64,000 bases of DNA from Bacteroidota bacterium. Lineage in GTDB: Bacteria; Bacteroidota; Bacteroidia; Bacteroidales; UBA10428. Below, one piece after another: positions 3,805-51,082 of the stretch. The position numbers and the translations under genes were made by a program. The notes beneath the pieces were generated by a model. The model saw nothing but the letters and a program-made list of their open reading frames with translations, ran no database searches and was not told the DNA's origin. The number at the start of each line of letters is the position of its first letter. The first letter of the stretch is position 1. The stretch is from positions 6,598-70,597 of the forward strand of contig QKEH01000137.1 of NCBI GenBank assembly GCA_003252385.1. The letters run 5' to 3'.

Positions 3805-3806
3805 TC

Positions 3807-8625: not shown

Positions 8626-8648
8626 GCTTGTTGGATGATAGGGTGTAA

Positions 8649-8656
8649 CAAATTTA
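8649..8656 (-). promoter_or_regulatory. Bacteroidota -7 promoter box (TAAATTTG on the minus strand)
   Basis: Matches the TAnnTTTG consensus 24 nt upstream of the ATG at 8625. Confidence 0.4.
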
Positions 8657-8796
8657 AAGTTTTCTCGCATTGGTTGTATCAACAGGAGGTTTCTTCCTTG
8701 CAAATTCTTTTTCATAAAGTTTGTCGTCTCCTAAGGCTTAGGCTACGATTAGGCCGTCCGTTCAATTATTCCCTTTGAAAAGAAAAAGGAAAAATC

Positions 8797-33914: not shown

Positions 33915-34385
33915 TCCTTCTCCTGCCCGCACCCATAAAACTTCGATGGTCGATTTTATGCCTCGTACCTGCATTTCCGGGGTGCGTAGACAAAGCTTCC
34001 GATCCTGAAAGGATGCATAGCGAATTTGTTCAGTTCCCCACCAGGTGAGGTTACTGCATCCGTGTACGCGGTGCACAATTTTTCCGGGCTCTTCTTCGGT
34101 ATAACGGCCGTAATAGGCCAGGTAGGTTTCGGCAAGTGGGTCGGAATGCGCCCGCGTGTCGGTAACGGTCAACGGAATCTCATGGCAAGAATAGCCAATC
34201 TGGGCATTCACAAATCCTTCGGGGGTATACATCAATATGCCGCATGGCTGATTACCGTACAGGTTATTTCGGAGCCCGTTTCGGTGGCAGCGGAAAATTG
34301 CATCCAGAATCCAGGTGCCCGCCAGAAGCGGTGCCACATAACACGAGGTGGTGGCCATTGTGGGGTTCGGTTGGGTGGTTTTCAT
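33891..34385 (-). CDS. Lipocalin-like domain protein (Lipocalin_5-type)
   Basis: LAGTWILD..., GILMYTPEGFVNAQI, YLAYYGRYTEE..GKIVHRV and WWGTEQIRYASFQDRKLCLRTP match the bacterial lipocalin-like family signature. It starts 43 nt after the PKS stop on the same strand. Confidence 0.72.
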   Translation of the reverse strand: MKTTQPNPTMATTSCYVAPLLAGTWILDAIFRCHRNGLRNNLYGNQPCGILMYTPEGFVNAQIGYSCHEIPLTVTDTRAHSDPLAETYLAYYGRYTEEEPGKIVHRVHGCSNLTWWGTEQIRYASFQDRKLCLRTPEMQVRGIKSTIEVLWVRAGEGSYLSEPD

Positions 34386-37400: not shown

Positions 37401-39095
37401 CATGGCTTCGAAAAAAACCGGCTGCGAAGTATACAAGCGGCACCCCATGCCATGCCATTGCGATCCTTGTCCGGAAAAAACAAATACCGTCCGATCGGGT
37501 ATTCGACCTTGAACAGGTTCGGTAATTTGGATGGATTGATGAAATTTCACCAGATGCTCACACAATTGTTCCCGGCTTGTGGCCACAACCAGTTTGCGGA
37601 ATTCCAACTGAGGTTTTCGAATGGCAAAGGCAGCACAAAAGTGGCGCAGTGCTTCGGGGTGGTTGTCCACTTTTTTCTCCACAAAGTCGGCTACCTTTTT
37701 GGCGTAACTCTTGAGTGCCGTATCGGAACTGGCCGACAATGGTAAAACAAAGTACTTTTGGGTGAAAGTAGGATTGGATTCTCTTGCGCGGCAAGGTTTG
37801 TATTCCTGAAGTACAATATGGGCATTGCTTCCGCCCCATCCGAAAGAGCTTACTCCGGCCAGTAAAGGCTTTTCGGCATTAGCAGGCCAGGCAGTGGTCT
37901 TGTTGGCTACCTCAAGATGCCACTCATCAAACCGAATTTTGGGATTGGGTGTTTCAAAATGGATGTTTGCCGGAATTTCGCGGTGCTGCATGGCCAAAAC
38001 TACCTTCAGTAAACCCGCAATCCCCGAGGCGGCTTCGGTATGTCCAATACTGGCTTTTACCGAGCCAATGAGCAATGGGGGTTTACGGATGCGGGAAGTG
38101 CCAAAGAAAGCACCCAGGGCTTCTGCTTCTAACGGATCGCCCAACCGGGTGCCCGTTCCGTGTGTTTCGATGTAATCAACATCGCATGGGTCGATTCCTG
38201 ACTGTTGATATGCTTTTTCGAGCAGGCGATATTGTCCTTTGGCGCTCGTAGCCGGCATGTGGGTATTGAATCCGTTGTTATTGAAGGCTCCGCCACGAAT
38301 TACTGCAAGTATGCGATCGCGATCGTTTTCGGCAGTTTCAAGCGGTTTTAAGAGAACCAGCCCTGCCCCTTCTGCACGAACAAAACCGTCGGCATTGGCA
38401 TCAAAACAACGGCATTGCCCGGCACTCGATAGCCCTCCGAATTTTGCCAGGTACACGTATTGTTCGGGGTTTAGGATATGGTTGACTCCTCCGGCGATGC
38501 CCATATCAATTTTCCCGTTTTGAAGCGATTCCACACACTGCATCACCGCTATAAGCGACGACGAACAACCGGTGTCGAGCACATAACTGGGGCCGGTTAA
38601 CCCGAAGAAGTATGATATACGGTTAGCAATCACATTGTTGGACTGTCCAATTCCTGAGAAATTATTGATTTCGGCATGTCTTTGGTTTCGGAAATGTTCG
38701 AAATCGGCCCAGATATTCCCCAGGTAAACCCCGGTGTTGGTACCTGCAAGGGCATCGAAGGGCATCGTACTGCTTTCGAAAAGTTCCCAGGCCAATTCCA
38801 TCATCAGTTTCTGCGAGGGGCTCATTTCATAAGCTTCCATGGGCGATATGGAAAATAGCTTAGGATCAAAATGGTGGATGGTTTCTAAAAAACCACCTAC
38901 ATTCTGGTTGGTTTTATTGGGTTTCTTTCCATCGGGATGATAGTATCTGCTCATATCCCATCGGTCGGATGGAACAGGCTCAATGGCAGACCGTCCTTCT
39001 TTCAACAGTTTCCAAAGTTCTTCGGGATGAGCTGCTTTTGGAAAACGACACGACATCCCGATTATAGCAATGGCTTTTTCGTTTCTGGCACGCAT
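34428..39095 (-). CDS. Type I polyketide synthase, single module KS-AT-DH-ACP-TE (no KR, ER or MT)
   Basis: 1555 aa. All catalytic motifs were read directly (see the domain sub-features). Confidence 0.95.
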   Translation of the reverse strand: MRARNEKAIAIIGMSCRFPKAAHPEELWKLLKEGRSAIEPVPSDRWDMSRYYHPDGKKPNKTNQNVGGFLETIHHFDPKLFSISPMEAYEMSPSQKLMMELAWELFESSTMPFDALAGTNTGVYLGNIWADFEHFRNQRHAEINNFSGIGQSNNVIANRISYFFGLTGPSYVLDTGCSSSLIAVMQCVESLQNGKIDMGIAGGVNHILNPEQYVYLAKFGGLSSAGQCRCFDANADGFVRAEGAGLVLLKPLETAENDRDRILAVIRGGAFNNNGFNTHMPATSAKGQYRLLEKAYQQSGIDPCDVDYIETHGTGTRLGDPLEAEALGAFFGTSRIRKPPLLIGSVKASIGHTEAASGIAGLLKVVLAMQHREIPANIHFETPNPKIRFDEWHLEVANKTTAWPANAEKPLLAGVSSFGWGGSNAHIVLQEYKPCRARESNPTFTQKYFVLPLSASSDTALKSYAKKVADFVEKKVDNHPEALRHFCAAFAIRKPQLEFRKLVVATSREQLCEHLVKFHQSIQITEPVQGRIPDRTVFVFSGQGSQWHGMGCRLYTSQPVFFEAMQRCAEALKPFTNWSLTNLMQASEDTGLLQRIDVIQPYIFAIQVSLAHLWLSLGVVPDAVVGHSMGEVAAAHIAGVLTLPDAARIICSRSQLMRSLSGQGSTMAVVGLGLDQTREFLTNFSGSLEISVNNSPKSTVVSGSQEAINRLLSDLESKDLFGRQVQVDVASHSAQMDAITHDLLIQLENIHPQKGRYPLVSTVRRQPLQGTEMDAAYWVENLRHPVYFEQAINSLLHDGANLFIELSPHPLLKNAIYECAGQQVIPNLSSIGSLNREDPEDEEFWKNFAQVFERGHNIGWKTYYQLEWPDQIELPAYPMERGEFQLKDLSMLATRSESDQGCMQHPFIREKVNLAGLTDLHFNVHLCVNQQPLLEEHRVNDRSVFPAAFYIEMVSYVLNRYLPDQPCGLRKVKFHQPVYPEKDVRVELQLKVTTFEGTPTAFAFYRATHDEEAWQLTCSGEIADVPAPPIKSTCAKPAAEYTDRESLYQLLHILGVDYGHPFRNVVGIQGQGENYEAVVHVAENMFEEAGNGSLNPVLLDNALHSILLPMKGKIIAEHLIFTTVLGIQEIYLPKEVPFTQRHVVTLHVTHKQLGESARYSLNSTLQVHNAHGDLVLALKGVMASVADTGLIKPVQKTADTQSSIRQLIDLPDSQERIKWIQDYLIAIVAKLIKASSDSISSKTTFRSLGIDSLSMVQLWNRIEKEFQISITLKDFTKFPSPNSFARYIDERMLFKKHTEPEATHHDPWLIKSRKSNRVEYQLVLFYDAGGSTQLFKDWEVFLPSSFELVMVELPGHGSRMEEQHIKRYDQLLDFIVPKLKEHLNKPFSIFGHSMGGVLAFETACQLNNRYNLQADALIVSGTPYLNGYENRFINTLMASPVTDEQLLSLIGSAAQTAQEQLVKQLLETLRADFELLYHYPYRNCTVLNAGIVALHATQDDRVALADVQLWEHATSRGFTLCSMEGGHHAVYAQGRQAVEVVLDAIRLHHQQKVFS
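34446..35144 (-). other. PKS C-terminal thioesterase domain (aa ~1318-1550)
   Basis: LVLFYDAGGS, GHS(1393)MGG nucleophile elbow, and late Asp/His residues (ATQDD..., EGGHH). Confidence 0.85.
35226..35483 (-). other. PKS acyl carrier protein domain (aa ~1205-1290)
   Basis: Phosphopantetheine site LGIDS(1252)LSMVQL. Confidence 0.88.
35541..36398 (-). other. PKS dehydratase-like double-hotdog domain (aa ~900-1185)
   Basis: H(937)xxxDxxxxP in LLEEHRVNDRSVFPAAFY, and D(1100)xxxH in LLDNALHS. Confidence 0.75.
36591..37490 (-). other. PKS acyltransferase domain (aa ~536-835)
   Basis: FSGQGSQWHGMG; GHS(628)MGE nucleophile; the specificity position reads VASH (aa 729-732). Confidence 0.9.
37806..39077 (-). 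other. PKS ketosynthase domain (aa ~7-430)
   Basis: IAIIGMSCRFP; active-site Cys177 in DTGCSSS (codon at 38565..38567); HGTGT at aa 312-316; GHTEAASG at aa 351-358; GSNAH. Confidence 0.93.
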
Positions 39096-39276
39096 AAATG
39101 GTTGGTTTTAAAGGTAAAAACGCACTGAAAACGAGGTACGTAAAATGGATTTGGGTGGTATGCAAGAGCCGGGAGCATCCGGGAACTCCATTATGGCTCA
39201 CCCCTGACGGGGTCAATTGTATGATTTCCACCTATAAAATTGATTATTCATTTGCGGTTAATCCCGGTATTTAAAG

Positions 39277-39352
39277 TGATTTACCTCATGAAAATCACAT
39301 GCTATACATCACTTATATAGTATATTGCATTGAATGACAAGTTATTGCAATA
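39277..39352. promoter_or_regulatory. Inverted/direct repeat cluster in the PKS-CheR divergent intergenic region
   Basis: GTGATTT-N8-AAATCAC at 39277..39298. TATTGCA (39323..39329) is repeated at 39343..39349, and TGCAATA (39346..39352) is its inverted partner. A third inverted repeat, ACGAAT-N19-ATTCGT, lies nearer cheR (~39491..39521). Confidence 0.35.
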
Positions 39353-39549
39353 AACACAATTCGAAAAAACTGTTGATTAGGATGGATCGCCACCATTCCC
39401 TGGGTGATATATGTCATATTTTCATCAGGTCGATGGAATTAATACGTAATTTCATAAATCTGTAGCGGGTCGAATGAAATATACCACAAACGAATAACAA
39501 AGAGGTAAGCATAATTCGTTAAATTTCAGCTAAATAAGGATTTTGGTTA

Positions 39550-40464
39550 ATGAAATGTACCATGGATACATGCGTAAACCTACAGAAAGAAGAAACTGTT
39601 AATTGGATTTCTGAACCGGAACTAAACGATGGTAATCAGCTGGAAAGGCTGGAGATTGAGCTTTTGTTGGAAGCCATTCATTCTCGCTATGGTTACGACT
39701 TTAGCAACTATTCTCCCAAATGTATCCGGCGTCGTATCCTTCACTTTCTCCGTCAGTCGCCTTACCCGGCAATTGCCGATTTGATCCACCCCATACTTAC
39801 CCAAGCCCCTTTTTTTCAGAAATTCATGCAACACCTGTCCATTACGGTGACCGAAATGTTCAGGGATCCCAACTTCTACCAGGAAATACGCAGCCGGGTA
39901 ATACCGGTATTGAGAACCTATCCGTACATTAAGATATGGCATGCCGGATGTGCAACCGGCGAAGAAGTGTATTCCATGGCTATTATCTTAAAAGAAGAAG
40001 GCTTGTTGGAACGAAGCCAGCTCTATGCCACAGATTTTAATCACCATGCTCTCATACTGGCGAGCGATGGCCGTTATACCAGCGAAACCGTCCATCAGTA
40101 TCAGGCGAACTACAGCCTTTCTGGCGGAAAAGGCCTGCTTACAGACTACTTTACCTGCAGTAAGCGCCACCTGCAAATCAGTAAAGAATTGAAATCCAAC
40201 ATTTTTTTCACCAGTCACAACCTGGTAACCGACAGCCTTTTTGGCGAAATGAATGTAATCTTCTGCCGGAATGTACTGATCTATTTTAATTCGGATTTGC
40301 AAAACCGGGTACTGAATATGATGAGCGAGAGCCTGGTATATAATGGTTTTTTATGCCTGGGTGCCAAGGAATCCCTCTGCTCCTATCCACACGCTCATTT
40401 TTACCATACTACCTCCGGGAAAATCGGGATTTTTCAAAAAAAACACGCGATTCCTCCATTCTAA
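39550..40464 (+). CDS. CheR-type protein-glutamate O-methyltransferase (stand-alone)
   Basis: N-terminal CheR helical domain (LEIELLLEAIHSRYGYDFSNYSPKCIRRRI). SAM-binding IWHAGCATGEEVYSMAIIL, DFNHHAL and IFCRNVLIYF. Confidence 0.85.
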   Translation: MKCTMDTCVNLQKEETVNWISEPELNDGNQLERLEIELLLEAIHSRYGYDFSNYSPKCIRRRILHFLRQSPYPAIADLIHPILTQAPFFQKFMQHLSITVTEMFRDPNFYQEIRSRVIPVLRTYPYIKIWHAGCATGEEVYSMAIILKEEGLLERSQLYATDFNHHALILASDGRYTSETVHQYQANYSLSGGKGLLTDYFTCSKRHLQISKELKSNIFFTSHNLVTDSLFGEMNVIFCRNVLIYFNSDLQNRVLNMMSESLVYNGFLCLGAKESLCSYPHAHFYHTTSGKIGIFQKKHAIPPF

Positions 40465-40509
40465 AGAAGCCGATAACCGCAACACAAGACTACTACCTAC
40501 ACCAACCAT

Positions 40510-43500
40510 ATGAAATTCAAGCAAAATAAAGCCGTCTATGGGACTGTTATCACCCTGGTAATCCTTGCGGCAGGCAGTTTGGCACTCAACAACCTGGGAT
40601 GCCGGCCATTAGGCTACCATCCAACTGTACATTCGGCAGTGGAGGCCATTGGGTCTCTGGTGGCCCTGTTAACCTGGTTTTTTCTTTATCGGAGTGCGAA
40701 CCCCGATGATAAAGTACTTCAGTGGCTGGCACAGGGATTTCTTGCCATGGGAATTCTGGATGGATTTCATGCACTTCTTGTTCCTGGAAATCATTTTGTT
40801 CTTATACACTGCCTGTCCGACTTGTTCGGAGGCACCTTGTTTGCCATGTCCTGGAGCACTTTGTTTTGGACATCATTCCGAACCCGTCTGGCGGCTTTTC
40901 TTACCGCCTGCACGGCTTTACTGGTGGGGCTGACATCCATTTTTTGGCCACATGGCATGCCGGTTTTCTGGTCCAATGGACACTATACCTCCCTGGCCGT
41001 TGCCATGAACCGGCTGGCGGCTATACTGTTTTTTCTGGCCGGCCTTTATTTTGTGCGCCTGTTGCTTTCCGGCAAACGCAACCCAGGTGTTTTGTTAAGT
41101 GTGGTATTGGCTGTGCTGCTAGGAGTTTCGAGCATTCTGTTAGAATTTTCCAATCTTTGGAATTCCTTCTGGTGGACCCTTCATGCCGTGCGTCTTTCAG
41201 CCTATATTTTTACCCTATGGTATTTGTTACGCGGCGTAGGCCAAATGCAAACCGAACTCAGCAAAAGCAATCAAATGCTGGCCAGGCAACAAGCCGAAAT
41301 TGAACAGGTAAATGCCGAACTCCGACGACAAACCGACAGTTTGAAGCAATCCGAAGAAAAACTCATTGCCCAGCAGCAGAAAATGGTAACCTTTAATACC
41401 GAACTGGAAGAGAAAACCTTGTTTCTGGAAGAACAAAAACAAGAGATTCTTGAAAAGAACCGGGAAAGTGAGCTGAATAACTGGCTCAAAACCGGGCAAA
41501 CCGAATTGGAAAAGCACATGAGGGGAAATAAGCAACCCGAAGTGCTGTGCCGCAACATTCTCACTTTTGTTTGCAACTACCTGCAAGCCGAAGTTGGCAC
41601 CATGTACCTGCTATCAAGTCCGGATACCCTGCAATTTACTGCCGGCTATGCCTTCGACTCCAACCGCCCCCATTTTTCTGAATTTAAAATAGGCGAAGGC
41701 TTTCCGGGGCAGGTCGCTCAGGATGGCCGGCGTATGCTGCTCAAAACTTTCCCCAACAATTACATGCAAATGAAATCGTCGCTGGGGACTAAAAATCCAG
41801 AGCTTATTGTGATCAGTCCGCTGATTTTTGAGGGACAAACCCTGGGTGTTTACGAATTGGGATGCTCGCATGACCTGGAAAACATTCACTATGATTTCCT
41901 GGACAGTATTCACGATAGTGTGGCGATCAGCATACAATCCCTTTTATCCCGGATTCGCCTGGACGAAGCCTTGTCGAGAGCACAGCTACAGGCCGAAGAA
42001 TTGCAGGTTCAGCAGGAAGAGTTGGAAAAAGCCAACGAAGAACTGCGACAACAAACCGATATTCTGATTCAATCGGAAAGAAAGCTGATGATACAGCAGG
42101 AAGAATTGCAGGCGAGCAATGAGGAACTGGCCCAGAAAACCTTGTATTTGGAAGAACAGAAAAAGGAAATCGACCGCAAAAACCACACTCTCGAAGAAGC
42201 CAGAAATACCCTGTCCGTTAAAGCCAGAGAACTGGAAGTTACCAGTCAGTACAAATCCGATTTTTTGGCAAACATGTCGCACGAACTTCGCACCCCCCTG
42301 AACAGTTTACTGATACTTGCACAGCAGTTGCACCGAAATAAGGAGCAGAATCTGATGCCCGATCAGGTAAAAGCAGCCGAAGTGATATATTCCAGTGGTT
42401 CCGATTTATTGCACCTCATTAACGATATTCTGGATCTGTCCAAAATTGAATCGGGTAAGATGATTCTCCAATGGGAAGATGTCAGCCTGAGCCAACTGGT
42501 AGAATCGTTACAGAATCGATGTCTGCCATTGATTCAGGAAAAAGGCCTCGAATTCACCCTAAAAATAGATACGACCCTGCCGCACACTATCCGAACCGAC
42601 CGAACCCGCACGGAACAGGTGCTGATGAATCTGCTGTCGAATGCCATGAAATTCACCGAAACAGGAACTGTTGGTCTTCACTTTTATCCCGCGGAACCTG
42701 ACCGGAATCAAAATCAACAGGACAACCATCCGGGCATGCTGGCCATGGAAATAAGCGATACAGGAATGGGAATACCCGAGGATAAACAGCAGATTATTTT
42801 TGAGGCATTTCAGCAGGTCGATAGCAGCATATCCCGGAAATTTGGTGGCACAGGCCTGGGTCTGTCCATTTCGCGCGAGCTTGCCAACCTGTTGGGAGGA
42901 AAGTTGCAGCTAAGAAGTACCCTGGGCAAAGGATCCGTTTTCACCCTGTTGGTTCCAATGATTCCTAATCCATCACGGAATGAAAGCCAAATCGAATCCG
43001 GAGAGGGACGCAGGAAACCGGATCTCTCCTCCCTGCTGTCGGATGGCATGCAACCAGCCCCGGCAGTTTCCGATGACCGGTTATCCCTGCACAATGGTGA
43101 CTGTATTGTAATGGTGATTGATCACGATTCGCACAGCACGGCTTATATTCACGACCAATGCCGAAAAAACGAGCTGAAATTCTTGCACGCCCTGAATGGA
43201 AACGAAGGTATAGAACTCGTCTATAAGTACCCTGTAGAAGCCATTTTACTGGCGTTGGATTTGCAGGATATGCCTGGCGAAGAGGTGTTACTTGCACTTA
43301 AGAGCGAATCCTGCACCCGACACATACCGGTGGTAACCCTGTTAGGAGCAAACTGTTCCATTCCGGCATTGTGCAAAGGAGCCTTAGCTATTGTGCAAAA
43401 GCCATTAAATCCCAAACGATTTGATACCGTGTTTAACACCCTTCTCGGTTTCATAGCGAAAAAGACAAAATCGCTACTCATTGTAGAAGATAATCAGCTC

Positions 43501-44271
43501 ATCCGGGAAAAACTCACGGAATTGCTGGCAGCCGATGATCTGACCATCACCCTTCTTGACACAGGAATGCAGGCAGTAAAAGCCATTCAGGATACCTCCT
43601 ACGATTGTATGATCCTGGATTTAATGCTACCCGATATCTCCGGCATAGAATTGCTCCAAAAGCTACAGGCAGATGCTGCGAAACCCCTTCCCCCCATCAT
43701 TGTATACACGGCCAAGGATTTGACCCGACAGGAAGCCGAGCAGCTTCAAAAGTATGCCCGTTCCATCATAATAAAAGGCCCCAACTCCAATGAACGGATC
43801 TTCGAAGAAACCTCGCTTTTTCTGCACCGGCCTTCAACCAGTCTGACCCCAAAAGGGCAGCAGATGCTTCAAAAAATCTACGACCACGAAACCATTTTTA
43901 AAGGTAAATCTGTGCTCCTGGTCGATGACGATATGCGCAATGTATTTGCCATATCGCAAGTACTCGAAGAAAAGGGAATGGACATTCACATAGCATCCAA
44001 TGGAAAGCTGGCACTGGAAAAGCTGCAAAGCGGAAAAGCTATTGATATGGTACTCATGGATATCATGATGCCGGTTATGGACGGATACGAAGCCATCCGT
44101 CGCATACGCTCCCAGGAATGCTTTTGGAAACTGCCCATAGTGGCTCTAACTGCAAAGGCCATGAAGGATGACCGCGAGAAATGCATGGCGGCAGGTGCCA
44201 ACGACTACCTATCCAAACCCATCCATATCGAACGTTTATTAGCCCTTATGCGAATATGGTTTTTTAATTAA
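40510..44271 (+). CDS. Hybrid sensor histidine kinase: polytopic membrane domain / coiled coil / GAF / coiled coil / HisKA-HATPase / 3 receiver domains
   Basis: About 7 hydrophobic helices (aa 1-240). A GAF-like region (aa ~340-485). H-box FLANMSH(591)ELRTPLNS, and the N/G boxes (LMNLLSNAMKFT, DTGMGIP, GGTGLGLSI). Receivers have acceptor Asp at ~917, 1036 and 1184. Confidence 0.9.
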   Translation: MKFKQNKAVYGTVITLVILAAGSLALNNLGCRPLGYHPTVHSAVEAIGSLVALLTWFFLYRSANPDDKVLQWLAQGFLAMGILDGFHALLVPGNHFVLIHCLSDLFGGTLFAMSWSTLFWTSFRTRLAAFLTACTALLVGLTSIFWPHGMPVFWSNGHYTSLAVAMNRLAAILFFLAGLYFVRLLLSGKRNPGVLLSVVLAVLLGVSSILLEFSNLWNSFWWTLHAVRLSAYIFTLWYLLRGVGQMQTELSKSNQMLARQQAEIEQVNAELRRQTDSLKQSEEKLIAQQQKMVTFNTELEEKTLFLEEQKQEILEKNRESELNNWLKTGQTELEKHMRGNKQPEVLCRNILTFVCNYLQAEVGTMYLLSSPDTLQFTAGYAFDSNRPHFSEFKIGEGFPGQVAQDGRRMLLKTFPNNYMQMKSSLGTKNPELIVISPLIFEGQTLGVYELGCSHDLENIHYDFLDSIHDSVAISIQSLLSRIRLDEALSRAQLQAEELQVQQEELEKANEELRQQTDILIQSERKLMIQQEELQASNEELAQKTLYLEEQKKEIDRKNHTLEEARNTLSVKARELEVTSQYKSDFLANMSHELRTPLNSLLILAQQLHRNKEQNLMPDQVKAAEVIYSSGSDLLHLINDILDLSKIESGKMILQWEDVSLSQLVESLQNRCLPLIQEKGLEFTLKIDTTLPHTIRTDRTRTEQVLMNLLSNAMKFTETGTVGLHFYPAEPDRNQNQQDNHPGMLAMEISDTGMGIPEDKQQIIFEAFQQVDSSISRKFGGTGLGLSISRELANLLGGKLQLRSTLGKGSVFTLLVPMIPNPSRNESQIESGEGRRKPDLSSLLSDGMQPAPAVSDDRLSLHNGDCIVMVIDHDSHSTAYIHDQCRKNELKFLHALNGNEGIELVYKYPVEAILLALDLQDMPGEEVLLALKSESCTRHIPVVTLLGANCSIPALCKGALAIVQKPLNPKRFDTVFNTLLGFIAKKTKSLLIVEDNQLIREKLTELLAADDLTITLLDTGMQAVKAIQDTSYDCMILDLMLPDISGIELLQKLQADAAKPLPPIIVYTAKDLTRQEAEQLQKYARSIIIKGPNSNERIFEETSLFLHRPSTSLTPKGQQMLQKIYDHETIFKGKSVLLVDDDMRNVFAISQVLEEKGMDIHIASNGKLALEKLQSGKAIDMVLMDIMMPVMDGYEAIRRIRSQECFWKLPIVALTAKAMKDDREKCMAAGANDYLSKPIHIERLLALMRIWFFN

Positions 44272-44290
44272 ACTTTTAATTACGAGGATT

Positions 44291-46876
44291 ATGTGCGGAG
44301 GAAAACCTATTATTTTATTGGTTGACGACAAGTCGGAAAATTTGTTTGCCCTGGAACAGTTACTTGGCGAGCTGGAGGTGGATACCCTGGCCGCATTATC
44401 GGGCAACGAAGCCATAACCAAAACGTTGGAATACGAATTTGCTCTGGCACTTATTGATGTTCAAATGCCCGACATGGATGGATTTGAAACGCTGGAGTTG
44501 CTTCGAAAAAACAGGGCTACAAAAAACCTGCCCGTAATTTTTATTACCGCAACCTACCAACCCGATTATTCAAAAGTGAAGGGCATTGAACGCGGGGCGG
44601 TCGATTTTTTAACCAAACCCATCGTGCCGGAATTGTTATTGGGTAAAATAAGGGTGCTTCTTAGTCTCTATGAACAACAAAAACAACTCTCCAATACCAT
44701 TAAGGAACGTGATATTGCTTTGCAACATCTCGAAGAGTACAAAGAACATCTGGAAGAACTGGTAGAAACCCGAACCAATGAGCTGGCCAATGTCAATGCC
44801 GGACTGGAAGAAGAAATTTCCATACGAAAAGATACGGAAACCCGGTTACGAGCCAGTGAGGAACGGTACCGTTTGCTTACGGAAAACGCCATTGATTGCA
44901 TTTGGACAATGGATGTAAGGATGCGTTTTACCTATGTAAGCCAGGCCATGGAACTGGTAACTGATTTTACACCGGAGGAGTGCATGGGTAAACCACTTTC
45001 CGCCTTTTGCGACTGGATTCACTTTGCCAAAGTCGCCCGGCTGGCGCTCGGCACCCTGCACAATCCGTTGGAATATCCCTACCTGAGGATTGAAACCCAG
45101 CTTCGATCCAAAAACGGCCAGTCCATCCCTATTGAAATAGCAGGTAAAGCCTTATTAGACAGCCAGGGTAAAGTGATTGGTTTACAGGGTTCCATGAAAG
45201 ATATTACCGAACGTGTCCAGTCGCATCGCGCGTTGCTGGAAAGCGAAAATCGCTTTCGAACCCTGTTCGACAGTTCCCCCGACATGTATGTGTCGTTTGC
45301 ACCAAAAGATGGACGCATTCTGCTCAGCAACCGCACCATGATGGCGCATCTGGGATATGCGGTCGAGGAACTGCGCGGTCGGGAGATCTTTGAGTTTTAT
45401 GCCGACAACGAACAGGATTTATTTAAACTCTTGCAAGAGGAAGGACGCTTAATCGATAAAGAGCTTAAACTGAAAAGAAAGGACAATACTTACATTGATG
45501 TGAACCTCAATGCAGAGGCCATCTACAACACCAACCATCAGCTGGTCTATTACATTGCTACCTGCAGAGACATTAGCCAGCGAATACGAACTGAACAGAA
45601 GCTAACCGACCAGAAGAAGAAGATTTTTGAGCAAATGAAGAATTTCAGCGAGCTCAACAAGGAATATCAGGCACTGAACAAAAACCTCATTAACTCCAAC
45701 CTTAAACTGAAAGAAACCAATATCCAATTGGAAATAGCAAAGAAGAAAGCAGAGGAGAGCGACCGGCTGAAATCGGCATTCTTAGCCAATATGTCGCACG
45801 AGATCCGTACTCCGATGAATGCGATTATTGGCTTTTCCAACCTTTTGAAAGATAATACACTCACAAGTAAAAAAACCGAGCACTATGTCGAACTAATCAA
45901 TAACTCCGGTCAGTATTTACTCAAGCTGATCAACGACATTATTGACCTCTCCAAATTGGAAGCCAGGCAATTAAAAATAAGCTATTGCACGTGTCGACTT
46001 TACGAAATTTTCCGTAATTCCTATGAGCTTTTCCTTCATCATGAGGTGTATAAGTCGAACGAAAAGGTGGATCTCTTGCTCGATGTGGATGAAGCCCAGT
46101 GTACCTGGAACATTGTGACCGATCAGATTCGCTTTGAACAGGTACTTAATAACCTTATTAACAATGCACTAAAATTCACTAAGGAAGGGCACGTACGGAT
46201 AGGCTATCGAGTCACCAAAGATGAAAGTCGCAGCTTTCTGGAGGTGTATGTGGATGATACCGGAATTGGTATACCGGACGAGATGAAGAACGTTATTTTT
46301 GAACGCTTCCGGCAGGTAAAAGAGCTGGACTATCACGAAGGCGCAGGTTTGGGACTGTGCATCTCAAAAGGTATTGTTGAACTCATGGGAGGTACTATCT
46401 GGTATGAAAGCGAGCCGGGTAAAGGATCTACCTTCTTTTTCACCATTCCCCTAAAAATAAACCTCTATTCCGAACCCGTGAAAACGCGCAACACCAACGG
46501 ACAGCTTAATCTGGCCAACAAAACCATTTTTATTGCTGAAGATGACAAGAATTCGTACGAATACCTGGAAGATTTACTCCAGGAAACCCAGGTAACCATT
46601 AAACATGCGCATAATGGCGAAGAACTCATGGAACTGTTGGAAGAGTCGATTCCCGACTTAATTCTGCTGGATATGAATATGCCGAGAAAAAATGGATACG
46701 ATTGCCTGAAAGAAATTAAACAAAAGCAAATTCCGGTTAAGATTATTGCACAGACCGCCTATGCCATGGCCAACGATAAAGAAAAATACCTCAACGAAGG
46801 CTGCCATGCTTATATTGCCAAGCCCTACGAGAGAAATGAAATGATACAAAAAATTGAAGAAGTATTGCAGGAATGA
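44291..46876 (+). CDS. Hybrid sensor histidine kinase: REC / coiled coil / 2 PAS / HisKA-HATPase / REC
   Basis: N-terminal receiver (ILLVDDKSEN, LIDVQMPDMDG, FLTKP). PAS-like repeats (EERYRLLTENAIDCIW..., ENRFRTLFDSSPDMYV...). H-box FLANMSHEIRTPMNAI; DDTGIGIP; GAGLGLCIS. C-terminal receiver (IFIAEDD, LLDMNMPRKNG, AYIAKP). Confidence 0.9.
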   Translation: MCGGKPIILLVDDKSENLFALEQLLGELEVDTLAALSGNEAITKTLEYEFALALIDVQMPDMDGFETLELLRKNRATKNLPVIFITATYQPDYSKVKGIERGAVDFLTKPIVPELLLGKIRVLLSLYEQQKQLSNTIKERDIALQHLEEYKEHLEELVETRTNELANVNAGLEEEISIRKDTETRLRASEERYRLLTENAIDCIWTMDVRMRFTYVSQAMELVTDFTPEECMGKPLSAFCDWIHFAKVARLALGTLHNPLEYPYLRIETQLRSKNGQSIPIEIAGKALLDSQGKVIGLQGSMKDITERVQSHRALLESENRFRTLFDSSPDMYVSFAPKDGRILLSNRTMMAHLGYAVEELRGREIFEFYADNEQDLFKLLQEEGRLIDKELKLKRKDNTYIDVNLNAEAIYNTNHQLVYYIATCRDISQRIRTEQKLTDQKKKIFEQMKNFSELNKEYQALNKNLINSNLKLKETNIQLEIAKKKAEESDRLKSAFLANMSHEIRTPMNAIIGFSNLLKDNTLTSKKTEHYVELINNSGQYLLKLINDIIDLSKLEARQLKISYCTCRLYEIFRNSYELFLHHEVYKSNEKVDLLLDVDEAQCTWNIVTDQIRFEQVLNNLINNALKFTKEGHVRIGYRVTKDESRSFLEVYVDDTGIGIPDEMKNVIFERFRQVKELDYHEGAGLGLCISKGIVELMGGTIWYESEPGKGSTFFFTIPLKINLYSEPVKTRNTNGQLNLANKTIFIAEDDKNSYEYLEDLLQETQVTIKHAHNGEELMELLEESIPDLILLDMNMPRKNGYDCLKEIKQKQIPVKIIAQTAYAMANDKEKYLNEGCHAYIAKPYERNEMIQKIEEVLQE

Positions 46877-46927: not shown

Positions 46928-46960
46928 AAGAGCCGGTAATTCATTACGTTACCGGCTCTT
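46928..46960. terminator. Hairpin between convergent genes (probable bidirectional terminator)
   Basis: Perfect 12-bp stem AAGAGCCGGTAA / TTACCGGCTCTT with a 9-nt loop. The flanking T/A runs are weak. Confidence 0.5.
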
Positions 46961-48217: not shown

Positions 48218-50986
48218 ATGAGAACGATTTGTTTTAGCGCATTCCTACTGTTTTTAGCTCTGATCGGCAATGCCCAATCTGCTGATATCGTTGAGAAACG
48301 TAACATTTATACCAAAAAAGGCGATTTCTACACGGAAAAGGGTGATTACGACAAAGCCATTCTGTTCTATAACATGGCGTATGAAAATGATAAAACCGAT
48401 TACCTGTCGATTCTAAAAAAAGCAGATGCCTACAGCAAACTGGCACTCTACCCGCAAGCGGTGAACAGTTATCGCTTCGTGTTTGAGCAGCCGGTTCGCC
48501 CTGCTAATTCGTATCGTTTAAAATATGCACTGGCTCTGCAGGCTAATGGGCAATACTCCGAATTCAAAAAAGTGATTAAGGAATACTCCGATTTGGTGGA
48601 GCTTGAAATTGGCAGCGGAAACACACTGGTTTCTGCCGAAAACCGTACAAAACTTTATAAAGATACCGCGGTAAGTTTTGTGGCCAACGGGCAAAGCGAA
48701 ACCGTAGCCTTCAAGGTAAAATATGCCGGGTATAAAATGCGCCGCCAGGAACACCCCGAAGACAAATACCTGAACCTGATTCTCAGCAACGGAACCGAGC
48801 ATAGCGTAGCACCATCCGATGGCGATAATTTTGAGTTTAACTTCCAGCCCCAGGAAGCCTACACCCTGCTGATACGAAAAGAAAATATTGAGGCTGCCAA
48901 CCTGTTGAATAAACCCGGATTTCAAACCCCTGCCCCGCTGCAGGAAACTGCTATTGAACTGGAACCGGGCATGAAATACGTGTTTACCACCGGATCGAAA
49001 AAAATAAGTGCCGATTACCGCTCGCGCCTGCAGTCTATGGCAGGAAGCTACCAATCGCCCGGTTCCGATGCCGTGGATCTGACTGCCCTGGTGAAGGAAC
49101 TCCACATGGCGGGCGACGAGGTATACAGCATCCGTTTTGAAAAAGGAACTGCTTCCGGTTATAAAAAGCCTGAAATTTCGAGCTTAACCATCAATGACGA
49201 AGCCATTAACATTTTTGGCAATTCGTTCTTTATTGTACTTCCGCTGGAAACCGGTGTCAACTTCAACGTACAAACCGACCTGGACGCTTTGGAGAAAAAC
49301 TTCAGCCCGAAAAAGTTTGCCATGCATATCGATGATGCACCGGTATTTACCGGATCACCCGATCAGGGCTATATGGTGGCACTTACCATCAACACCACTA
49401 CGGTGGATGGTATTAAAACCGAAAATACCTTTATGGGCCGCGAAATTGGCATGATACCCGGTACCGAATACATTCTTACACTAAGCAAACCCGATCCGTC
49501 GGGAGGTAACGATATCGAAGTGTTTGTTCCCTTAACCCAGGGGGTGAAATACAATTTTACTTCTCTGAGTGACAAACAGGAAGAATACCGCAAGGAACTG
49601 GCTGAGTTCCTTTTGGATCGGAAGGATGTAAAACTGGCCGACGAGGAAATCATTAATATTTCGATGCTCTCCAAGGCTCTGGAGGTGGAACCGGGCGAAA
49701 AACTGTCGTTTAACCTTAAACCTGCCAAAAAAATGGGCTCCCAGCCAGGCACAGCGTCCGCAGCAAGCTCGATACTCATGATCGATGACAAGGAATTTAA
49801 AATTAACAGTACCGAAAAATTCCGGGTAAACATTCCTTTTGATCTGGAAAATAAACTCAATATCCAGACCGATCTGGGTTATGTGCAGGAACATTTTGCC
49901 AGCAATGCCTATACCGTGCGGGTGGATACCTCATCCTTCGTCTCCGAAATCAGTATTGATGTGAAAGAGCTGGATAAGTACAAGGACAGCGAATGGCTAA
50001 GCATGAGCGTAAATACCGAGTCGGTGGCAGAGGTTAGCAAACAGGATCAGTTTATTGCCAAGGATGTAAGCATACTGCCCGGCAAGGAGTACATCCTCAC
50101 CATCAGCAAAACCGATGGTAAAACCGGTAAAATCGATGATATCATCATTCCGTTGATCCGCGATGTGAAGTACGATTTTACAGCCCGCGAGGGCTCGGCC
50201 GAAGAATTTGACGCGGCGCTGGATGCCTTCCTGTCCGGACAGAAGAAAGCGACCACTCCCGAAGGAACCATGATCGACATTAAACTGCTTTCGAAGGAAC
50301 TGGAGATCGAGAAAGGCGATGCGGTATCCTTCAGTCTGTTACCGGTTAAAAACATCTACAAAAAGCCCGAAAATGTCGAAAACGCAGCCTCCAGCCTTTT
50401 CCTCGATGATAAAGTGGTAGAGTTTACTCATATTAACAAATATTCCATTAACATGCCGCTACACCAGGGACAGATGAATGTACAAACCAACCTGGACTAC
50501 ATCCAGCAAAATTACCAACCCGGCACGGTACATTTTGAAGTGGACACCCTCTCCTTCTTCTCCGAAATAACTGTAGATACCACAGGGCTCGGCAATCGGG
50601 TAGTGAAAGAAAAAATTACCGATCCGGTATTCGATGTGGTCATTGTAAATTTTGAAGTCAACCAACACGTGCTTACCCCAAAAGCCAAACAAATCATTCA
50701 GGACAAAGTATTCAACGAGATGAGTAAGGACAACCGATTGTATGTTACCATTACCGGCTATACCGATGCACTGGGCGATGCCGATTACAACATGAAATTG
50801 TCGCAAAAAAGAGCCGAATCGGTTCAAGCCTATCTGAAAGCCAATGGCGTGGGCGACAACCGGATCCGGACTTTCTCCTTCGGCGCGGCTTCCAAGCTCG
50901 AAGCAGGAGTAAACTGGAAGGATTTAAGCGAGGCTGAACTGGCCAAGTACCGCAAGGTGGAAATTGTGATCTATTTACCGAAATAA
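48218..50986 (+). CDS. Large OmpA-family protein: signal peptide / TPR / three ~200-aa tandem repeats / OmpA peptidoglycan-binding domain
   Basis: Signal peptide (LLFLALIGNAQS) and a TPR-like region (GDYDKAILFYNMAYEND...). The C-terminal OmpA_C domain has ITGYTDALGDADYNMKLSQKRAESVQAYL. Confidence 0.8.
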   Translation: MRTICFSAFLLFLALIGNAQSADIVEKRNIYTKKGDFYTEKGDYDKAILFYNMAYENDKTDYLSILKKADAYSKLALYPQAVNSYRFVFEQPVRPANSYRLKYALALQANGQYSEFKKVIKEYSDLVELEIGSGNTLVSAENRTKLYKDTAVSFVANGQSETVAFKVKYAGYKMRRQEHPEDKYLNLILSNGTEHSVAPSDGDNFEFNFQPQEAYTLLIRKENIEAANLLNKPGFQTPAPLQETAIELEPGMKYVFTTGSKKISADYRSRLQSMAGSYQSPGSDAVDLTALVKELHMAGDEVYSIRFEKGTASGYKKPEISSLTINDEAINIFGNSFFIVLPLETGVNFNVQTDLDALEKNFSPKKFAMHIDDAPVFTGSPDQGYMVALTINTTTVDGIKTENTFMGREIGMIPGTEYILTLSKPDPSGGNDIEVFVPLTQGVKYNFTSLSDKQEEYRKELAEFLLDRKDVKLADEEIINISMLSKALEVEPGEKLSFNLKPAKKMGSQPGTASAASSILMIDDKEFKINSTEKFRVNIPFDLENKLNIQTDLGYVQEHFASNAYTVRVDTSSFVSEISIDVKELDKYKDSEWLSMSVNTESVAEVSKQDQFIAKDVSILPGKEYILTISKTDGKTGKIDDIIIPLIRDVKYDFTAREGSAEEFDAALDAFLSGQKKATTPEGTMIDIKLLSKELEIEKGDAVSFSLLPVKNIYKKPENVENAASSLFLDDKVVEFTHINKYSINMPLHQGQMNVQTNLDYIQQNYQPGTVHFEVDTLSFFSEITVDTTGLGNRVVKEKITDPVFDVVIVNFEVNQHVLTPKAKQIIQDKVFNEMSKDNRLYVTITGYTDALGDADYNMKLSQKRAESVQAYLKANGVGDNRIRTFSFGAASKLEAGVNWKDLSEAELAKYRKVEIVIYLPK
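48770..50587 (+). repeat. Three tandem ~200-aa protein repeats inside the OmpA-family gene
   Basis: Repeats R2 (aa ~385-585) and R3 (aa ~592-790) align clearly: PGTEYILTLSKPD/PGKEYILTISKTD; VKYNFT/VKYDFT; LSKALEVEPGEKLSFNL/LSKELEIEKGDAVSFSL; NIQTDLGYVQEHF/NVQTNLDYIQQNY; SEISIDV/SEITVDT. R1 (aa ~185-380) is more diverged (NFNVQTDLDALEKNF). Confidence 0.7.
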
Positions 50987-51012
50987 TCCACTCAAATTGT
51001 GAATAAAACAGG

Positions 51013-51046
51013 AAAGGAGCACGGATATTCCCGCGGCTCCTTTTTT
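51013..51046 (+). terminator. Rho-independent terminator after the OmpA-family gene
   Basis: AAAGGAGC...GCTCCTTT stem followed by T6. It lies inside the 5' extension of tracked ORF 50999..52117, which argues for the later start at 51083. Confidence 0.65.
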
Positions 51047-51082
51047 AATTTAGAAGATGGAATAACCAATAACATAAAAACC

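What the first reader, a model, noticed from the sequence alone, without database searches (positions are those of the whole stretch)
39550..46876. Orphan CheR methyltransferase with two hybrid kinases (5 receivers, no output) and no chemotaxis genes
**Seen in the sequence.**
- A normal-length CheR (N-terminal helical domain plus the AGCATGEEVYS SAM site) is followed after 45 nt by a 1253-aa hybrid kinase.
- That kinase is followed after 19 nt by an 861-aa REC-PAS-PAS-kinase-REC protein.
- All three genes are on the same strand with no terminator until 46928.
- Nothing resembling CheA, CheW, CheB, CheY-P phosphatases or a classical MCP is present in the 64 kb.
- Between them the two kinases hold five apparently intact receiver domains (acceptor Asp, T/S and K all present). 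There is no Hpt domain and no DNA-binding or enzymatic output domain.

**Established knowledge.** CheR methylates glutamates in the coiled-coil adaptation region of chemoreceptors.

**Inference.**
- The methylation target here is probably the adjacent kinase itself (see the coiled-coil finding). That would give an adaptation-type covalent input to a multi-step phosphorelay.
- The final output is encoded elsewhere, or it acts through protein-protein contacts.
- I cannot tell from the sequence alone how widely this exact arrangement occurs.
Basis: partly seen in the sequence, partly recalled or inferred. Interest (0 to 1): 0.75.

Follow-up and report, generated by a model that had tools for sequence, protein, structure and literature searches.

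The report
CheR paired with a methyl-accepting-like kinase
An uncultured Bacteroidales bacterium carries a chemotaxis-type methyltransferase next to two sensor kinases and no chemotaxis genes; comparison with about 140 related loci suggests that the enzyme methylates a conserved glutamate-pair motif in the first kinase, a widespread arrangement that nobody appears to have tested biochemically.

Summary
The three genes are real and sit at the stated coordinates. No CheA, CheW, CheB, CheZ or MCP lies in the 64 kb. One claim is wrong: receiver 1 of the 1253-aa kinase (HK1) has Ala in place of the acceptor Asp, so four receivers are intact, not five.

The locus is not an oddity. This CheR clade sits beside an HK1-type kinase (sensor-GAF-coiled coil-HisKA-HATPase-REC×3) in about 50 of 63 genomes from many phyla. 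A REC-less CheB and a REC-GGDEF or a second REC-kinase usually follow. By architecture this is the P. putida cfcABCDE type.

The helix between GAF and the phospho-His carries two near-invariant repeats, QQEEL-x3-NEEL.
- They match the chemoreceptor methylation consensus EExxA(S/T).
- They keep strict heptad phase with the His (82/82).
- They recur in CheB-CheR-fusion kinases.
- They are degenerate in family members that lack CheR (11/13 versus 5/24).

Best reading: CheR methylates HK1's signalling helix.

The window is a variant with no CheB, a MASE3-like sensor, a duplicated coiled coil and a dead receiver. The evidence is comparative only, and no biochemistry was found in the literature.

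The parts
39096..39549 (.). 454-nt intergenic region between the divergent type I PKS gene and cheR. It presumably holds the promoter of the three-gene unit.
   Evidence: no convincing promoter was identified
39550..40464 (+). CheR-family protein-glutamate methyltransferase, 304 aa. The N-terminal helical domain is aa 35-80 and the SAM domain aa 100-280. It has a roughly 24-aa N-terminal extension relative to the family.
   Evidence: Pfam. It matches 57 of 57 columns that are at least 95% conserved in 58 CheRs of this clade. It is about 27% identical to E. coli CheR.
40510..44271 (+). HK1, a 1253-aa CfcA-type hybrid histidine kinase and the proposed methyl acceptor
   Evidence: Pfam. Residues 324-1252 are 36-45% identical to the CheR-adjacent kinase in 50 loci.
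40510..41229 (+). HK1 aa 1-240: multi-pass membrane sensor, MASE3-like
   Evidence: Weak Pfam MASE3 hit at 1.6e-3, below the cut-off. It is 27% identical to the MASE3 region of P0134 at E 1e-17, and a crude hydropathy scan finds five segments.
41284..41514 (+). HK1 aa 259-335: coiled coil cc1, a degenerate internal duplicate of cc2 with the Glu pairs lost (QQAEI..NAEL, QQQKM..NTEL)
   Evidence: 53% identity over 76 aa to cc2, E 1e-22. Most homologues have a HAMP domain here.
41536..41937 (+). HK1 GAF domain, aa 343-476
   Evidence: Pfam GAF_2 at 1.9e-8
41974..42252 (+). HK1 aa 489-581: coiled coil cc2, the signalling helix between GAF and the DHp domain
   Evidence: AlphaFold2 predicts one unbroken helix over aa 458-609, with pLDDT above 90 over the repeats. 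All seven d positions from 505 to 547 are Leu.
42004..42057 (+). Repeat 1, QVQQEELEKANEELRQQT (aa 499-516). Candidate methyl-accepting pairs are E503/E504 and E510/E511.
   Evidence: Per-column counts out of 51: Q502 50, E503 48, E504 48, L505 50, N509 51, E511 51
42088..42141 (+). Repeat 2, MIQQEELQASNEELAQKT (aa 527-544). Residues 531-536, EELQAS, match the MCP consensus EExxA(S/T) exactly. Candidate pairs are E531/E532 and E538/E539.
   Evidence: It lies 28 residues after repeat 1, and N537 lies 54 residues before His591, the modal spacing in the family.
42253..42960 (+). HK1 HisKA (aa 582-649, phospho-His591 at 42280-42282) and HATPase_c (aa 697-817)
   Evidence: Pfam
43105..43464 (+). HK1 REC1, aa 866-985: a pseudo-receiver with the acceptor Asp replaced by Ala915 (43252-43254)
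43492..44247 (+). HK1 REC2 (acceptor D1037) and REC3 (acceptor D1184), both canonical
44291..46876 (+). HK2, an 861-aa REC-PAS-PAS-HisKA-HATPase-REC hybrid kinase (D56, H503, D794). It has no NEEL motif.
   Evidence: Pfam. The best matches to its kinase-REC core, at 36-38% identity, are the REC-HK-REC genes that lie between the HK1-like gene and cheR in loci L008, L001 and L023 (Bacteroidales/Bacteroidota MAGs). The motif is absent from it.
46931..46959 (.). Perfect 10-bp inverted repeat with a 9-nt loop, likely a bidirectional terminator that ends the unit

Best explanation

**Proposed mechanism**
- CheR uses SAM to methylate glutamates of the two QQEEL-x3-NEEL repeats (aa 502-512 and 530-540).
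- The repeats lie on the long dimeric helix that runs from the GAF domain straight into the DHp helix carrying His591.
- The Glu pairs occupy exposed b/c heptad positions of a leucine zipper whose a positions are polar (Q, N, T). Neutralising them should therefore shift helix packing and with it the kinase/phosphatase balance, as methylation does in chemoreceptors.
- Phosphoryl groups then pass to REC2/REC3 of HK1, to the receivers of HK2, and on to an output encoded elsewhere.

**Shown here**
- Domain content.
- Conserved synteny.
- Motif conservation and heptad phase.
- Predicted helix continuity.
- Correlation between the motif and CheR adjacency.

**Inferred**
- That methyl transfer happens at all.
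- Which Glu residues accept the methyl group.
- The effect on kinase activity.
- The phosphotransfer route.

In this window no CheB is present. Methylation would then be a one-way or slowly reversible set-point, unless an esterase is encoded elsewhere in the genome.
For: 1. **Synteny from the CheR side.** 63 loci from Bacteroidales, Desulfobacterota, Vibrio, Ferrimonas, Coxiellaceae, Rhodospirillales, Spirochaetales, Cloacimonadota and others were anchored on CheR. About 50 have an HK1-type kinase directly adjacent, and most of the rest are cut by contig ends. No CheA, CheW or MCP is part of the cluster.
2. **Synteny from the kinase side.** P0162 (Chitinophaga), P0166, P0165 (Dyadobacter) and P0134 all have CheR and CheB next door.
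3. **Motif conservation.** The repeats are conserved as well as the HisKA domain. Mean frequency of the commonest residue is 0.78 and 0.84 for the repeats, 0.81 for HisKA and 0.46 for GAF. N509, E511, E532, L533, N537 and L540 are invariant in 51 of 51 sequences.
4. **Heptad phase.** Spacings between repeats are multiples of 7 in 78 of 78 cases. The distance to the phospho-His is 5 mod 7 in 82 of 82 kinases. AlphaFold2 gives one helix over aa 458-609.
5. **Match to chemoreceptors.** EELQAS and the family's EELRVT fit the MCP methylation consensus EExxA(S/T). Tar has LEETAAS and MEQLTAT.
6. **Motif specificity.** The motif occurs in 48 of 50 HK1-like proteins. It occurs in 3 of 772 other proteins from the same loci, and all three are truncated or variant CheR-adjacent kinases. 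In the window's six-frame translation it occurs only twice, both in HK1.
7. **Fusion kinases.** CheB-CheR-fusion kinases P0206 and P0221 carry 4-5 tandem EELxxxNEEL heptads directly after the CheR domain.
8. **Co-loss.** In an H-box-anchored metagenome sample of family members, 11 of 13 with an intact motif have CheR within 3.5 kb. Only 5 of 24 with a degenerate motif do (Fisher p = 3e-4). Two motif-less Desulfosarcina-clade kinases have neither CheR nor CheB.
9. **CheR integrity.** The window's CheR keeps 57 of 57 highly conserved family columns.
Against: - There is no biochemical evidence anywhere. Ten literature searches found only the genetics of P. putida cfcABCDE. Unpublished results quoted in that paper say that mutants in the other cfc genes, which include the CheR and CheB genes, keep the crinkly-colony phenotype (PMC4951495).
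- The motif/CheR association is not corrected for phylogeny. Most degenerate, CheR-less cases appear, from their near-identical sequences, to belong to one large soil clade.
- Five family members have CheR with an imperfect motif, so the strict regular expression is not required.
- A conserved polar leucine zipper could be kept for signalling-helix mechanics alone.
- The window lacks CheB, and it uniquely lacks the third Glu pair of each repeat. The family has NEEL-EE where the window has NEEL-RQ and NEEL-AQ. If those pairs were the true sites, this HK1 would be a poor substrate.
- The rest of the genome is unseen.
Confidence: 0.6

Rival explanations
1. This CheR methylates something other than HK1. 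Candidates are a classical or cytoplasmic chemoreceptor encoded elsewhere in the genome, HK2, or an unrelated protein. On this view the adjacency reflects only co-regulation.
For: - Only 64 kb of a 72-kb contig from a MAG is visible.
- CheR enzymes are otherwise known only as MCP methyltransferases (established knowledge).
- MCP genes lie a few kb upstream in two loci, L012 and L049.
Against: - The clade-specific adjacency to HK1-type kinases holds in Vibrio and Desulfovibrio-type genomes, genera that I know to be flagellated and chemotactic; I did not check those genomes for che operons.
- The window organism is an uncultured Bacteroidales with T9SS cargo proteins. That group is normally without flagella or Che arrays (plus my own knowledge).
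- HK2 has no EE-heptad motif.
- P. putida's CheR of this cluster was reported to have no chemotaxis role (Garcia-Fontana 2013, as cited in PMC4951495).
Confidence: 0.15
2. The QQEEL-NEEL repeats are a purely structural signalling-helix element. CheR, and CheB where present, regulate the kinase by binding to it or by modifying another region, so the motif is not the methyl acceptor.
For: - The strict heptad phase to the His and the all-Leu d positions are what any rigid signal-transmitting coiled coil would show.
- Some CheR-linked members have imperfect repeats.
- The window lacks the third EE pair.
Against: - The same heptads recur in CheB-CheR-fusion kinases whose helix sits next to the CheR domain and before PAS domains, a different structural context.
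- Motif decay accompanies CheR/CheB loss while the kinase core is kept.
- Glu pairs at b/c positions are conserved at 94-100%, which packing alone does not demand.
Confidence: 0.15
3. The locus is a decaying remnant of a Cfc-type cluster. CheB is lost, REC1 is dead and the gene order is scrambled, so CheR no longer has a function here.
For: - CheB is absent.
- REC1 has lost its acceptor Asp and matches the family consensus at only 29% of columns.
- The two extra EE pairs are lost.
Against: - All three ORFs are intact.
- CheR keeps 57 of 57 conserved columns.
- Both core repeats, His591, the HATPase domain and four receivers are canonical.
- CheB-less versions with a second kinase recur independently in L008, L094, L101, L121 and others.
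Confidence: 0.08

Closest known systems
Pseudomonas putida cfcABCDE cluster: CfcA hybrid kinase, CfcB (CheR), CfcC (CheB), CfcD, and the distant response regulator CfcR (REC-GGDEF-EAL)
   Same: - A membrane sensor kinase with GAF, a HisKA/HATPase core and three C-terminal receivers is encoded next to a non-chemotactic CheR (PMC4951495; bioRxiv 10.1101/2024.11.25.625174 citing Tagua 2022).
- A second kinase carrying a REC domain lies in the same cluster. For CfcD this rests on my memory of the Tagua 2022 abstract; PMC4951495 shows only that CfcD has a REC domain.
- The 50 loci analysed here have the same layout.
   Different: - The window has no CheB and no GGDEF partner.
- Its sensor is MASE3-like and multi-pass rather than CHASE3.
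- A duplicated coiled coil takes the place of HAMP.
- REC1 is dead.
- cheR lies upstream of the kinase.
- Sequence-level orthology to PP_3761 could not be tested here.
- No publication I could find assigns a role to CfcB or CfcC, or describes the EE-heptad motif.
Methyl-accepting chemotaxis proteins with CheR/CheB adaptation (E. coli Tar/Tsr)
   Same: - The enzyme belongs to the CheR family.
- Glu pairs are spaced seven residues apart on a long coiled coil.
- The local consensus is EExxA(S/T).
- The presumed logic is the same: charge neutralisation tunes kinase output.
   Different: - HK1 has no MCPsignal domain, and there is no CheW or CheA.
- The helix is fused directly to a HisKA kinase rather than controlling CheA through an array.
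- The window CheR is about 27% identical to E. coli CheR.
CheB-CheR-fusion sensor kinases containing PAS_10, for example Desulfocurvibacter africanus P0206
   Same: - CheR-family enzymes are physically coupled to a HisKA kinase.
- The same tandem EELxxxNEEL heptads are present.
   Different: - There the enzymes are fused to the kinase, and the heptads follow the CheR domain.
- Here CheR is a separate protein, only about 27% identical to the fusion's CheR domain.
- Here the heptads lie between GAF and DHp.
Wsp, Frz and other 'alternative cellular function' chemosensory systems
   Same: Che-type methylation enzymes are used for outputs other than flagellar control, often c-di-GMP.
   Different: Those systems keep an MCP, CheW and a CheA-type kinase. 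This module has none of them.

Membership tests
CheR protein-glutamate O-methyltransferase (PF03705 + PF01739) | Two-domain architecture: an N-terminal all-alpha domain plus a SAM-binding Rossmann-type domain | tested here: met
   CheR_N at 3.6e-8 (33.4 bits, cut-off 27) and CheR at 6.2e-41
CheR protein-glutamate O-methyltransferase (PF03705 + PF01739) | Conserved SAM-site and catalytic residues retained | tested here: met
   57 of 57 columns that are at least 95% conserved in 58 clade members are matched. The AGCATGEEVYS and NVLIYF blocks align with E. coli CheR.
CheR protein-glutamate O-methyltransferase (PF03705 + PF01739) | Transfers methyl groups from SAM to glutamate side chains of a substrate | not testable with these tools
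   Needs a biochemical assay
Equivalog of enterobacterial chemotaxis CheR (NCBIfam NF007902) | Score above the curated equivalog cut-off | tested here: not met
   64.5 bits against a cut-off of 435; about 27% identity to E. coli CheR
CfcA-type CheR/CheB-coupled hybrid kinase cluster | Kinase architecture: sensor-GAF-coiled coil-HisKA-HATPase-REC-REC-REC | tested here: met
   Pfam. Residues 324-1252 are 36-45% identical to 50 CheR-adjacent kinases. REC1 is degenerate.
CfcA-type CheR/CheB-coupled hybrid kinase cluster | cheR of the dedicated clade directly adjacent on the same strand | tested here: met
   45-nt gap. The CheR is 43-55% identical to the cluster CheRs. The gene order is reversed relative to most loci but matches L074 and L129.
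CfcA-type CheR/CheB-coupled hybrid kinase cluster | Double QQEEL-x3-NEEL repeat in heptad phase with the phospho-His | tested here: met
   Residues 502-512 and 530-540, 28 residues apart. N537 lies 54 residues before His591.
CfcA-type CheR/CheB-coupled hybrid kinase cluster | Stand-alone, REC-less CheB methylesterase in the cluster | tested here: not met
   tblastn with 46 CheB sequences finds nothing in 64 kb. CheB is also missing from 8 of 62 related loci.
CfcA-type CheR/CheB-coupled hybrid kinase cluster | Partner REC-GGDEF(-EAL) or a second REC-containing kinase in the cluster | tested here: inconclusive
   A second kinase, HK2, is present and resembles the cluster's REC-HK-REC in loci L008, L001 and L023 (Bacteroidales/Bacteroidota MAGs). 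No GGDEF gene is in the window.
CfcA-type CheR/CheB-coupled hybrid kinase cluster | Sequence orthology to P. putida PP_3761 (CfcA) and PP_3760 | not testable with these tools
Only the architecture could be compared with the published description.
Chemosensory (Che) pathway | CheA kinase, CheW adaptor and an MCP with an MCPsignal domain | tested here: not met
   None in the window. No CheW and no confirmed CheA lie in the conserved cluster elsewhere; MCP genes lie a few kb upstream in two loci, and one unverified CheA-like label occurs in L015. The rest of the genome is unseen.
Methyl-accepting chemotaxis protein | MCPsignal (PF00015) hairpin domain | tested here: not met
   No such Pfam hit in HK1 or HK2
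Methyl-accepting chemotaxis protein | Methylation consensus EExxA(S/T) with heptad spacing | tested here: met
   EELQAS at 531-536 and Glu pairs 7 residues apart (503/504 and 510/511; 531/532 and 538/539). Compare Tar 301 and 308.
CheB-CheR-fusion sensor kinases | CheB and CheR domains fused to PAS_10 and a kinase in one polypeptide | tested here: not met
   CheR is a separate 304-aa protein, and HK1 and HK2 have no CheB, CheR or PAS_10 domains

The most novel reading that the evidence does not exclude
A large, phylum-spanning family of histidine kinases is itself methyl-accepting. On this reading, dedicated CheR and CheB enzymes write and erase glutamyl methyl esters on a conserved double QQEEL-x3-NEEL element in the helix that feeds the phospho-His. 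That would give ordinary two-component phosphorelays chemotaxis-style memory and adaptation without MCPs, CheW or CheA. The window would be a CheB-less version in a non-chemotactic Bacteroidales, where methylation acts as a set-point.
Probability: 0.55. Interest if true: 0.8.

Novelty: new variant of a known kind. Interest (0 to 1): 0.6.

Why it matters
CheR/CheB methylation is the textbook mechanism of sensory adaptation, but it is known only for chemoreceptor arrays.

Non-chemotactic CheR and CheB genes, such as P. putida CheR3/CfcB and the many found in Bacteroidota, have had no assigned substrate.

The comparative evidence here points to specific residues: E503/E504, E510/E511, E531/E532 and E538/E539 on the helix leading to His591. 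It also points to a family present in culturable genera, with members seen here in Vibrio, Ferrimonas, Dyadobacter and Chitinophaga and, by architecture, in Pseudomonas. The question can therefore be tested directly by mutagenesis and methylation assays.

If confirmed, covalent adaptation would extend to classical two-component systems, including ones that control c-di-GMP and biofilm formation.

Tried and rejected
- **Literature.** No paper was found on CheR methylating a histidine kinase or on the NEEL heptads. Only the cfc genetics turned up. Tagua 2022 and Garcia-Fontana 2013 are not held.
- **CheB or other Che genes in the window.** None was found.
- **Source genome.** The window comes from a 72-kb contig of a MAG or metagenome with no close relatives. 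Only order-level placement was possible, from GyrA. Whether a che operon or a CheB lies elsewhere therefore stays open.
- **Does loss of CheB go with REC1 degeneration or with loss of the third EE pair?** No consistent pattern emerged.
- **HK2 as an alternative methyl acceptor.** Rejected, because it has no EE-heptad motif.
- **Rfam and tRNA scans of the window.** Nothing found.
- **Promoter and terminator consensus scan.** Uninformative. It missed the real hairpin, and it does not cover Bacteroidota promoters.
- **Mirror-tree test of CheR against kinase.** Considered but not run, because shared species phylogeny would confound it.

Full report
**1. Observation**

- cheR lies at 39550-40464.
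- A 1253-aa hybrid kinase (HK1) lies at 40510-44271, after a 45-nt gap.
- An 861-aa kinase (HK2) lies at 44291-46876, after a 19-nt gap.
- All are on the + strand.

Pfam gives these architectures.
- CheR has CheR_N plus the CheR SAM domain.
- HK1 has a weak MASE3-like membrane region, GAF, HisKA, HATPase_c and three Response_reg matches.
- HK2 has REC, two PAS domains, HisKA, HATPase_c and REC.
- There is no Hpt and no output domain.

A perfect 10-bp hairpin at 46931-46959 separates HK2 from a convergent gene.

I ran a Pfam scan of the main ORFs of at least 150 aa in the window. I also ran tblastn with 46 CheB sequences and with E. coli CheA, CheW, CheZ and Tar. Neither found a chemotaxis component.

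Two esterases carry T9SS sorting domains. GyrA is 75-86% identical to proteins named 'Bacteroidales bacterium'. The organism is therefore an uncultured Bacteroidales. The window comes from a 72-kb contig with no near relatives.

One claim fails. When REC1 of HK1 is aligned with 50 homologues, it has Ala915 where 49 of them have the acceptor Asp. It also has DHD for EDD and Leu for Ser. HK1 and HK2 thus hold four intact receivers and one pseudo-receiver.

**2. What the locus belongs to**

*CheR-anchored scan.* Scanning one genome per GTDB species with the CheR sequence returned 63 loci at 43-55% identity from many phyla. I annotated their ORFs with the window's own domains and with E. coli Che proteins. 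The result is a recurrent cluster:
- a 1200-1500-aa kinase with a sensor (dCache or others), HAMP, GAF, a coiled coil, HisKA, HATPase and three receivers;
- then CheR;
- then a roughly 190-aa CheB that has only the methylesterase domain;
- then REC-GGDEF, REC-GGDEF-EAL or a REC-kinase.

*Relation of the window's genes to this cluster.*
- HK1 residues 324-1252 are 36-45% identical to these kinases.
- Bacteroidales versions have extra REC-HK-REC(-REC) kinases and no GGDEF.
- The best matches to HK2's kinase-REC core are exactly those cluster kinases in L008, L001 and L023.

*Kinase-anchored look-ups.* These gave the same picture in Chitinophaga, Dyadobacter and two metagenome or MAG contigs, P0166 and P0134.

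*Link to published work.* By architecture this is the cluster called cfcABCDE in Pseudomonas putida.
- CfcA is a CHASE/GAF hybrid kinase with three receivers.
- CfcB and CfcC are a CheR/CheB pair with no role in chemotaxis.
- CfcA activates the diguanylate cyclase CfcR.
- Sources: PMC4951495; bioRxiv 10.1101/2024.11.25.625174 citing Tagua 2022.
- I could not fetch the P. putida sequences, so the link rests on architecture.

**3. The candidate methyl-accepting element**

*Sequence and conservation.* In an alignment of 51 family kinases, the segment between GAF and HisKA holds two repeats with the consensus QQEELRVTNEELEE(Q/R)T.
- In HK1 they read QVQQEELEKANEELRQQT (499-516) and MIQQEELQASNEELAQKT (527-544).
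- They are as conserved as the HisKA domain and much more conserved than GAF.
- Several positions are invariant in all 51 sequences.

*Heptad phase.* I counted spacings across 82 family kinases.
- The spacing between successive NEEL cores is always a multiple of seven (78 of 78, usually 28).
- The distance to the phospho-His is always 5 mod 7 (82 of 82, usually 54, as in HK1).

*Predicted structure.* AlphaFold2 on HK1 324-700, with 33 homologues in the alignment, reached a mean pLDDT of 86.8. It predicts one unbroken helix from residue 458 to 609, running through both repeats and His591.

*Position of the Glu pairs.* Reading the heptads directly from the sequence:
- every d position from 505 to 547 is Leu;
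- the a positions are polar (Q502, N509, T516, E523, Q530, N537, T544);
- the Glu pairs sit at b/c.

*Match to chemoreceptors.* Residues 531-536 (EELQAS) match the classical chemoreceptor methylation consensus Glu-Glu-x-x-Ala-Ser/Thr. The family consensus EELRVT is one conservative step away. E. coli Tar sites read LEETAAS and MEQLTAT.

**4. Tests linking the motif to CheR**

- *Specificity.* Among 822 proteins from the 63 loci, the motif occurs in 48 of 50 HK1-like kinases. Otherwise it occurs only in three truncated or variant CheR-adjacent kinases. In the window it occurs only in HK1.
- *Independent context.* Two CheB-CheR-fusion kinases, P0206 from Desulfocurvibacter africanus and P0221, carry four to five tandem EELxxxNEEL heptads right after their CheR domain.
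- *Co-loss.* A Desulfosarcina-type subclade has the repeats degenerated beyond recognition. Its two contexts I could read have no CheR or CheB.
- *Unbiased sample.* I drew 80 metagenome loci using only H-box peptide patterns. Among family members with enough flank, 11 of 13 with an intact repeat have CheR within 3.5 kb, against 5 of 24 without (Fisher p = 3e-4).

The last test has a weakness. It is not corrected for relatedness, and many of the negatives appear to belong to one soil clade. The five exceptions carry near-motifs.

**5. Mechanism proposed**

CheR methylates Glu residues of the repeats. Charge neutralisation on a marginally stable zipper with a polar core alters helix packing or rotation. 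That change propagates into the DHp domain and resets the kinase/phosphatase balance, as in chemoreceptors. In canonical clusters the REC-less CheB reverses the modification.

The phosphorelay then runs through the kinase's receivers to REC-GGDEF proteins or, in Bacteroidota, to further REC-kinases and single receivers. Everything after 'CheR methylates' is inference.

**6. How the window differs**

- cheR precedes the kinase. This is also seen in L074 and L129.
- CheB is absent. It is also absent from 8 of 62 CheR-anchored loci. Among the metagenome loci, L094, L101 and L121 combine CheR with a second kinase and have no CheB.
- The sensor is a MASE3-like multi-pass domain. It is shared with P0139 and is related to P0134.
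- The usual HAMP is replaced by a duplicate of the coiled coil in which every Glu pair has been lost (53% identity).
- REC1 is dead.
- The third Glu pair after each NEEL is RQ and AQ, unique among 51 sequences.
- CheR itself looks fully functional, matching 57 of 57 conserved columns.

Without an esterase, methylation here would be a one-way or slowly reversible set-point, unless CheB is encoded elsewhere.

**7. Rivals**

- *CheR acts on an unseen MCP or another protein.* The clade-level synteny and the host lineage argue against this, but I cannot exclude it without the whole genome.
- *The motif is purely structural.* This is weakened by its reappearance in fusion kinases in a different context and by its decay where CheR is lost.
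- *The locus is a decaying remnant.* This is weakened by intact ORFs, conserved catalytic residues and recurrent CheB-less relatives.

**8. Novelty and verdict**

The cluster type is known genetically in one species and is annotated widely. I found no publication that assigns a substrate to its CheR and CheB or that describes the heptad motif (ten searches).

The window is a new variant of that known kind. Interest is moderate to high because the idea can be tested directly. Confidence in the mechanism is about 0.6.

Noticed in passing
window 34428-39095 (-), with 33891-34385 (-): A single-module type I polyketide synthase (KS-AT-DH-ACP-TE, 1555 aa) is transcribed divergently from cheR across a 454-nt intergenic region. 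A lipocalin-like protein lies just downstream of it. Such a PKS is an unusual neighbour for a signalling operon in a Bacteroidales.
   Followed up: no
window 41284-41514 (HK1 aa 259-335): An internal duplicate of the motif-bearing coiled coil sits between the membrane domain and GAF, where most homologues have HAMP. All four Glu pairs are replaced (AE, AE, QK, TE). P0139 has a comparable MASE3-coiled coil-GAF layout.
   Followed up: partly
window 42043-42048 and 42127-42132 (HK1 aa 513-514 and 541-542): The family has a third Glu pair after each NEEL, present in 39-49 of 51 sequences. The window alone has RQ and AQ at both places. Gln mimics methyl-Glu in chemoreceptors, which is intriguing in a locus without CheB. 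No consistent link to CheB loss was seen in other loci.
   Followed up: partly
window 57857-58354 (-): A stand-alone receiver protein of 165 aa, with canonical Asp, Thr and Lys and a roughly 45-aa N-terminal extension, lies 11 kb downstream. Related Bacteroidota clusters include single receivers next to CheR (L067). It could be a relay partner, but nothing ties it to the operon.
   Followed up: partly
window 48218-50986 (+) and 50999-52117 (+): A 922-aa protein has an N-terminal TPR, a C-terminal OmpA domain and, by eye, two or three internal repeats of about 190 aa (for example '...NIQTDLGYVQEHF...' and '...NVQTNLDYIQQNY...'). A patatin-like phospholipase follows it.
   Followed up: no
window 3031-4895 (+); 4969-6096 (-); 6510-7670 (-): A LytTR response regulator and a LytS-type kinase pair lie next to two esterase/lipase-like proteins with T9SS C-terminal sorting domains. 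The sorting domains are what first marked the contig as Bacteroidota.
   Followed up: no
L096 (metagenome contig Ga0126379_10005123), about 3600-8700: An HK1-like kinase lies next to a convergent 882-aa CheB-CheR fusion protein and two more CheB-like genes. This looks like an intermediate between the separate-enzyme and fused-enzyme versions of the system.
   Followed up: no
L083-L131, many loci (for example L105, L114, L116, L125, L131): A large set of metagenome kinases, apparently from soil samples and mostly 1900-2250 aa, has a long N-terminal extension, a single degenerate repeat (QQKELQQTNEQL) and no CheR nearby. It appears to be a CheR-independent branch of the same family.
   Followed up: partly
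L015 (Calditrichaceae MAG), downstream of CheR: In place of CheB, the gene after cheR was labelled REC plus CheA-like by phmmer against E. coli CheA (611 aa). This may only be HATPase similarity, and I did not check it with Pfam.
   Followed up: no
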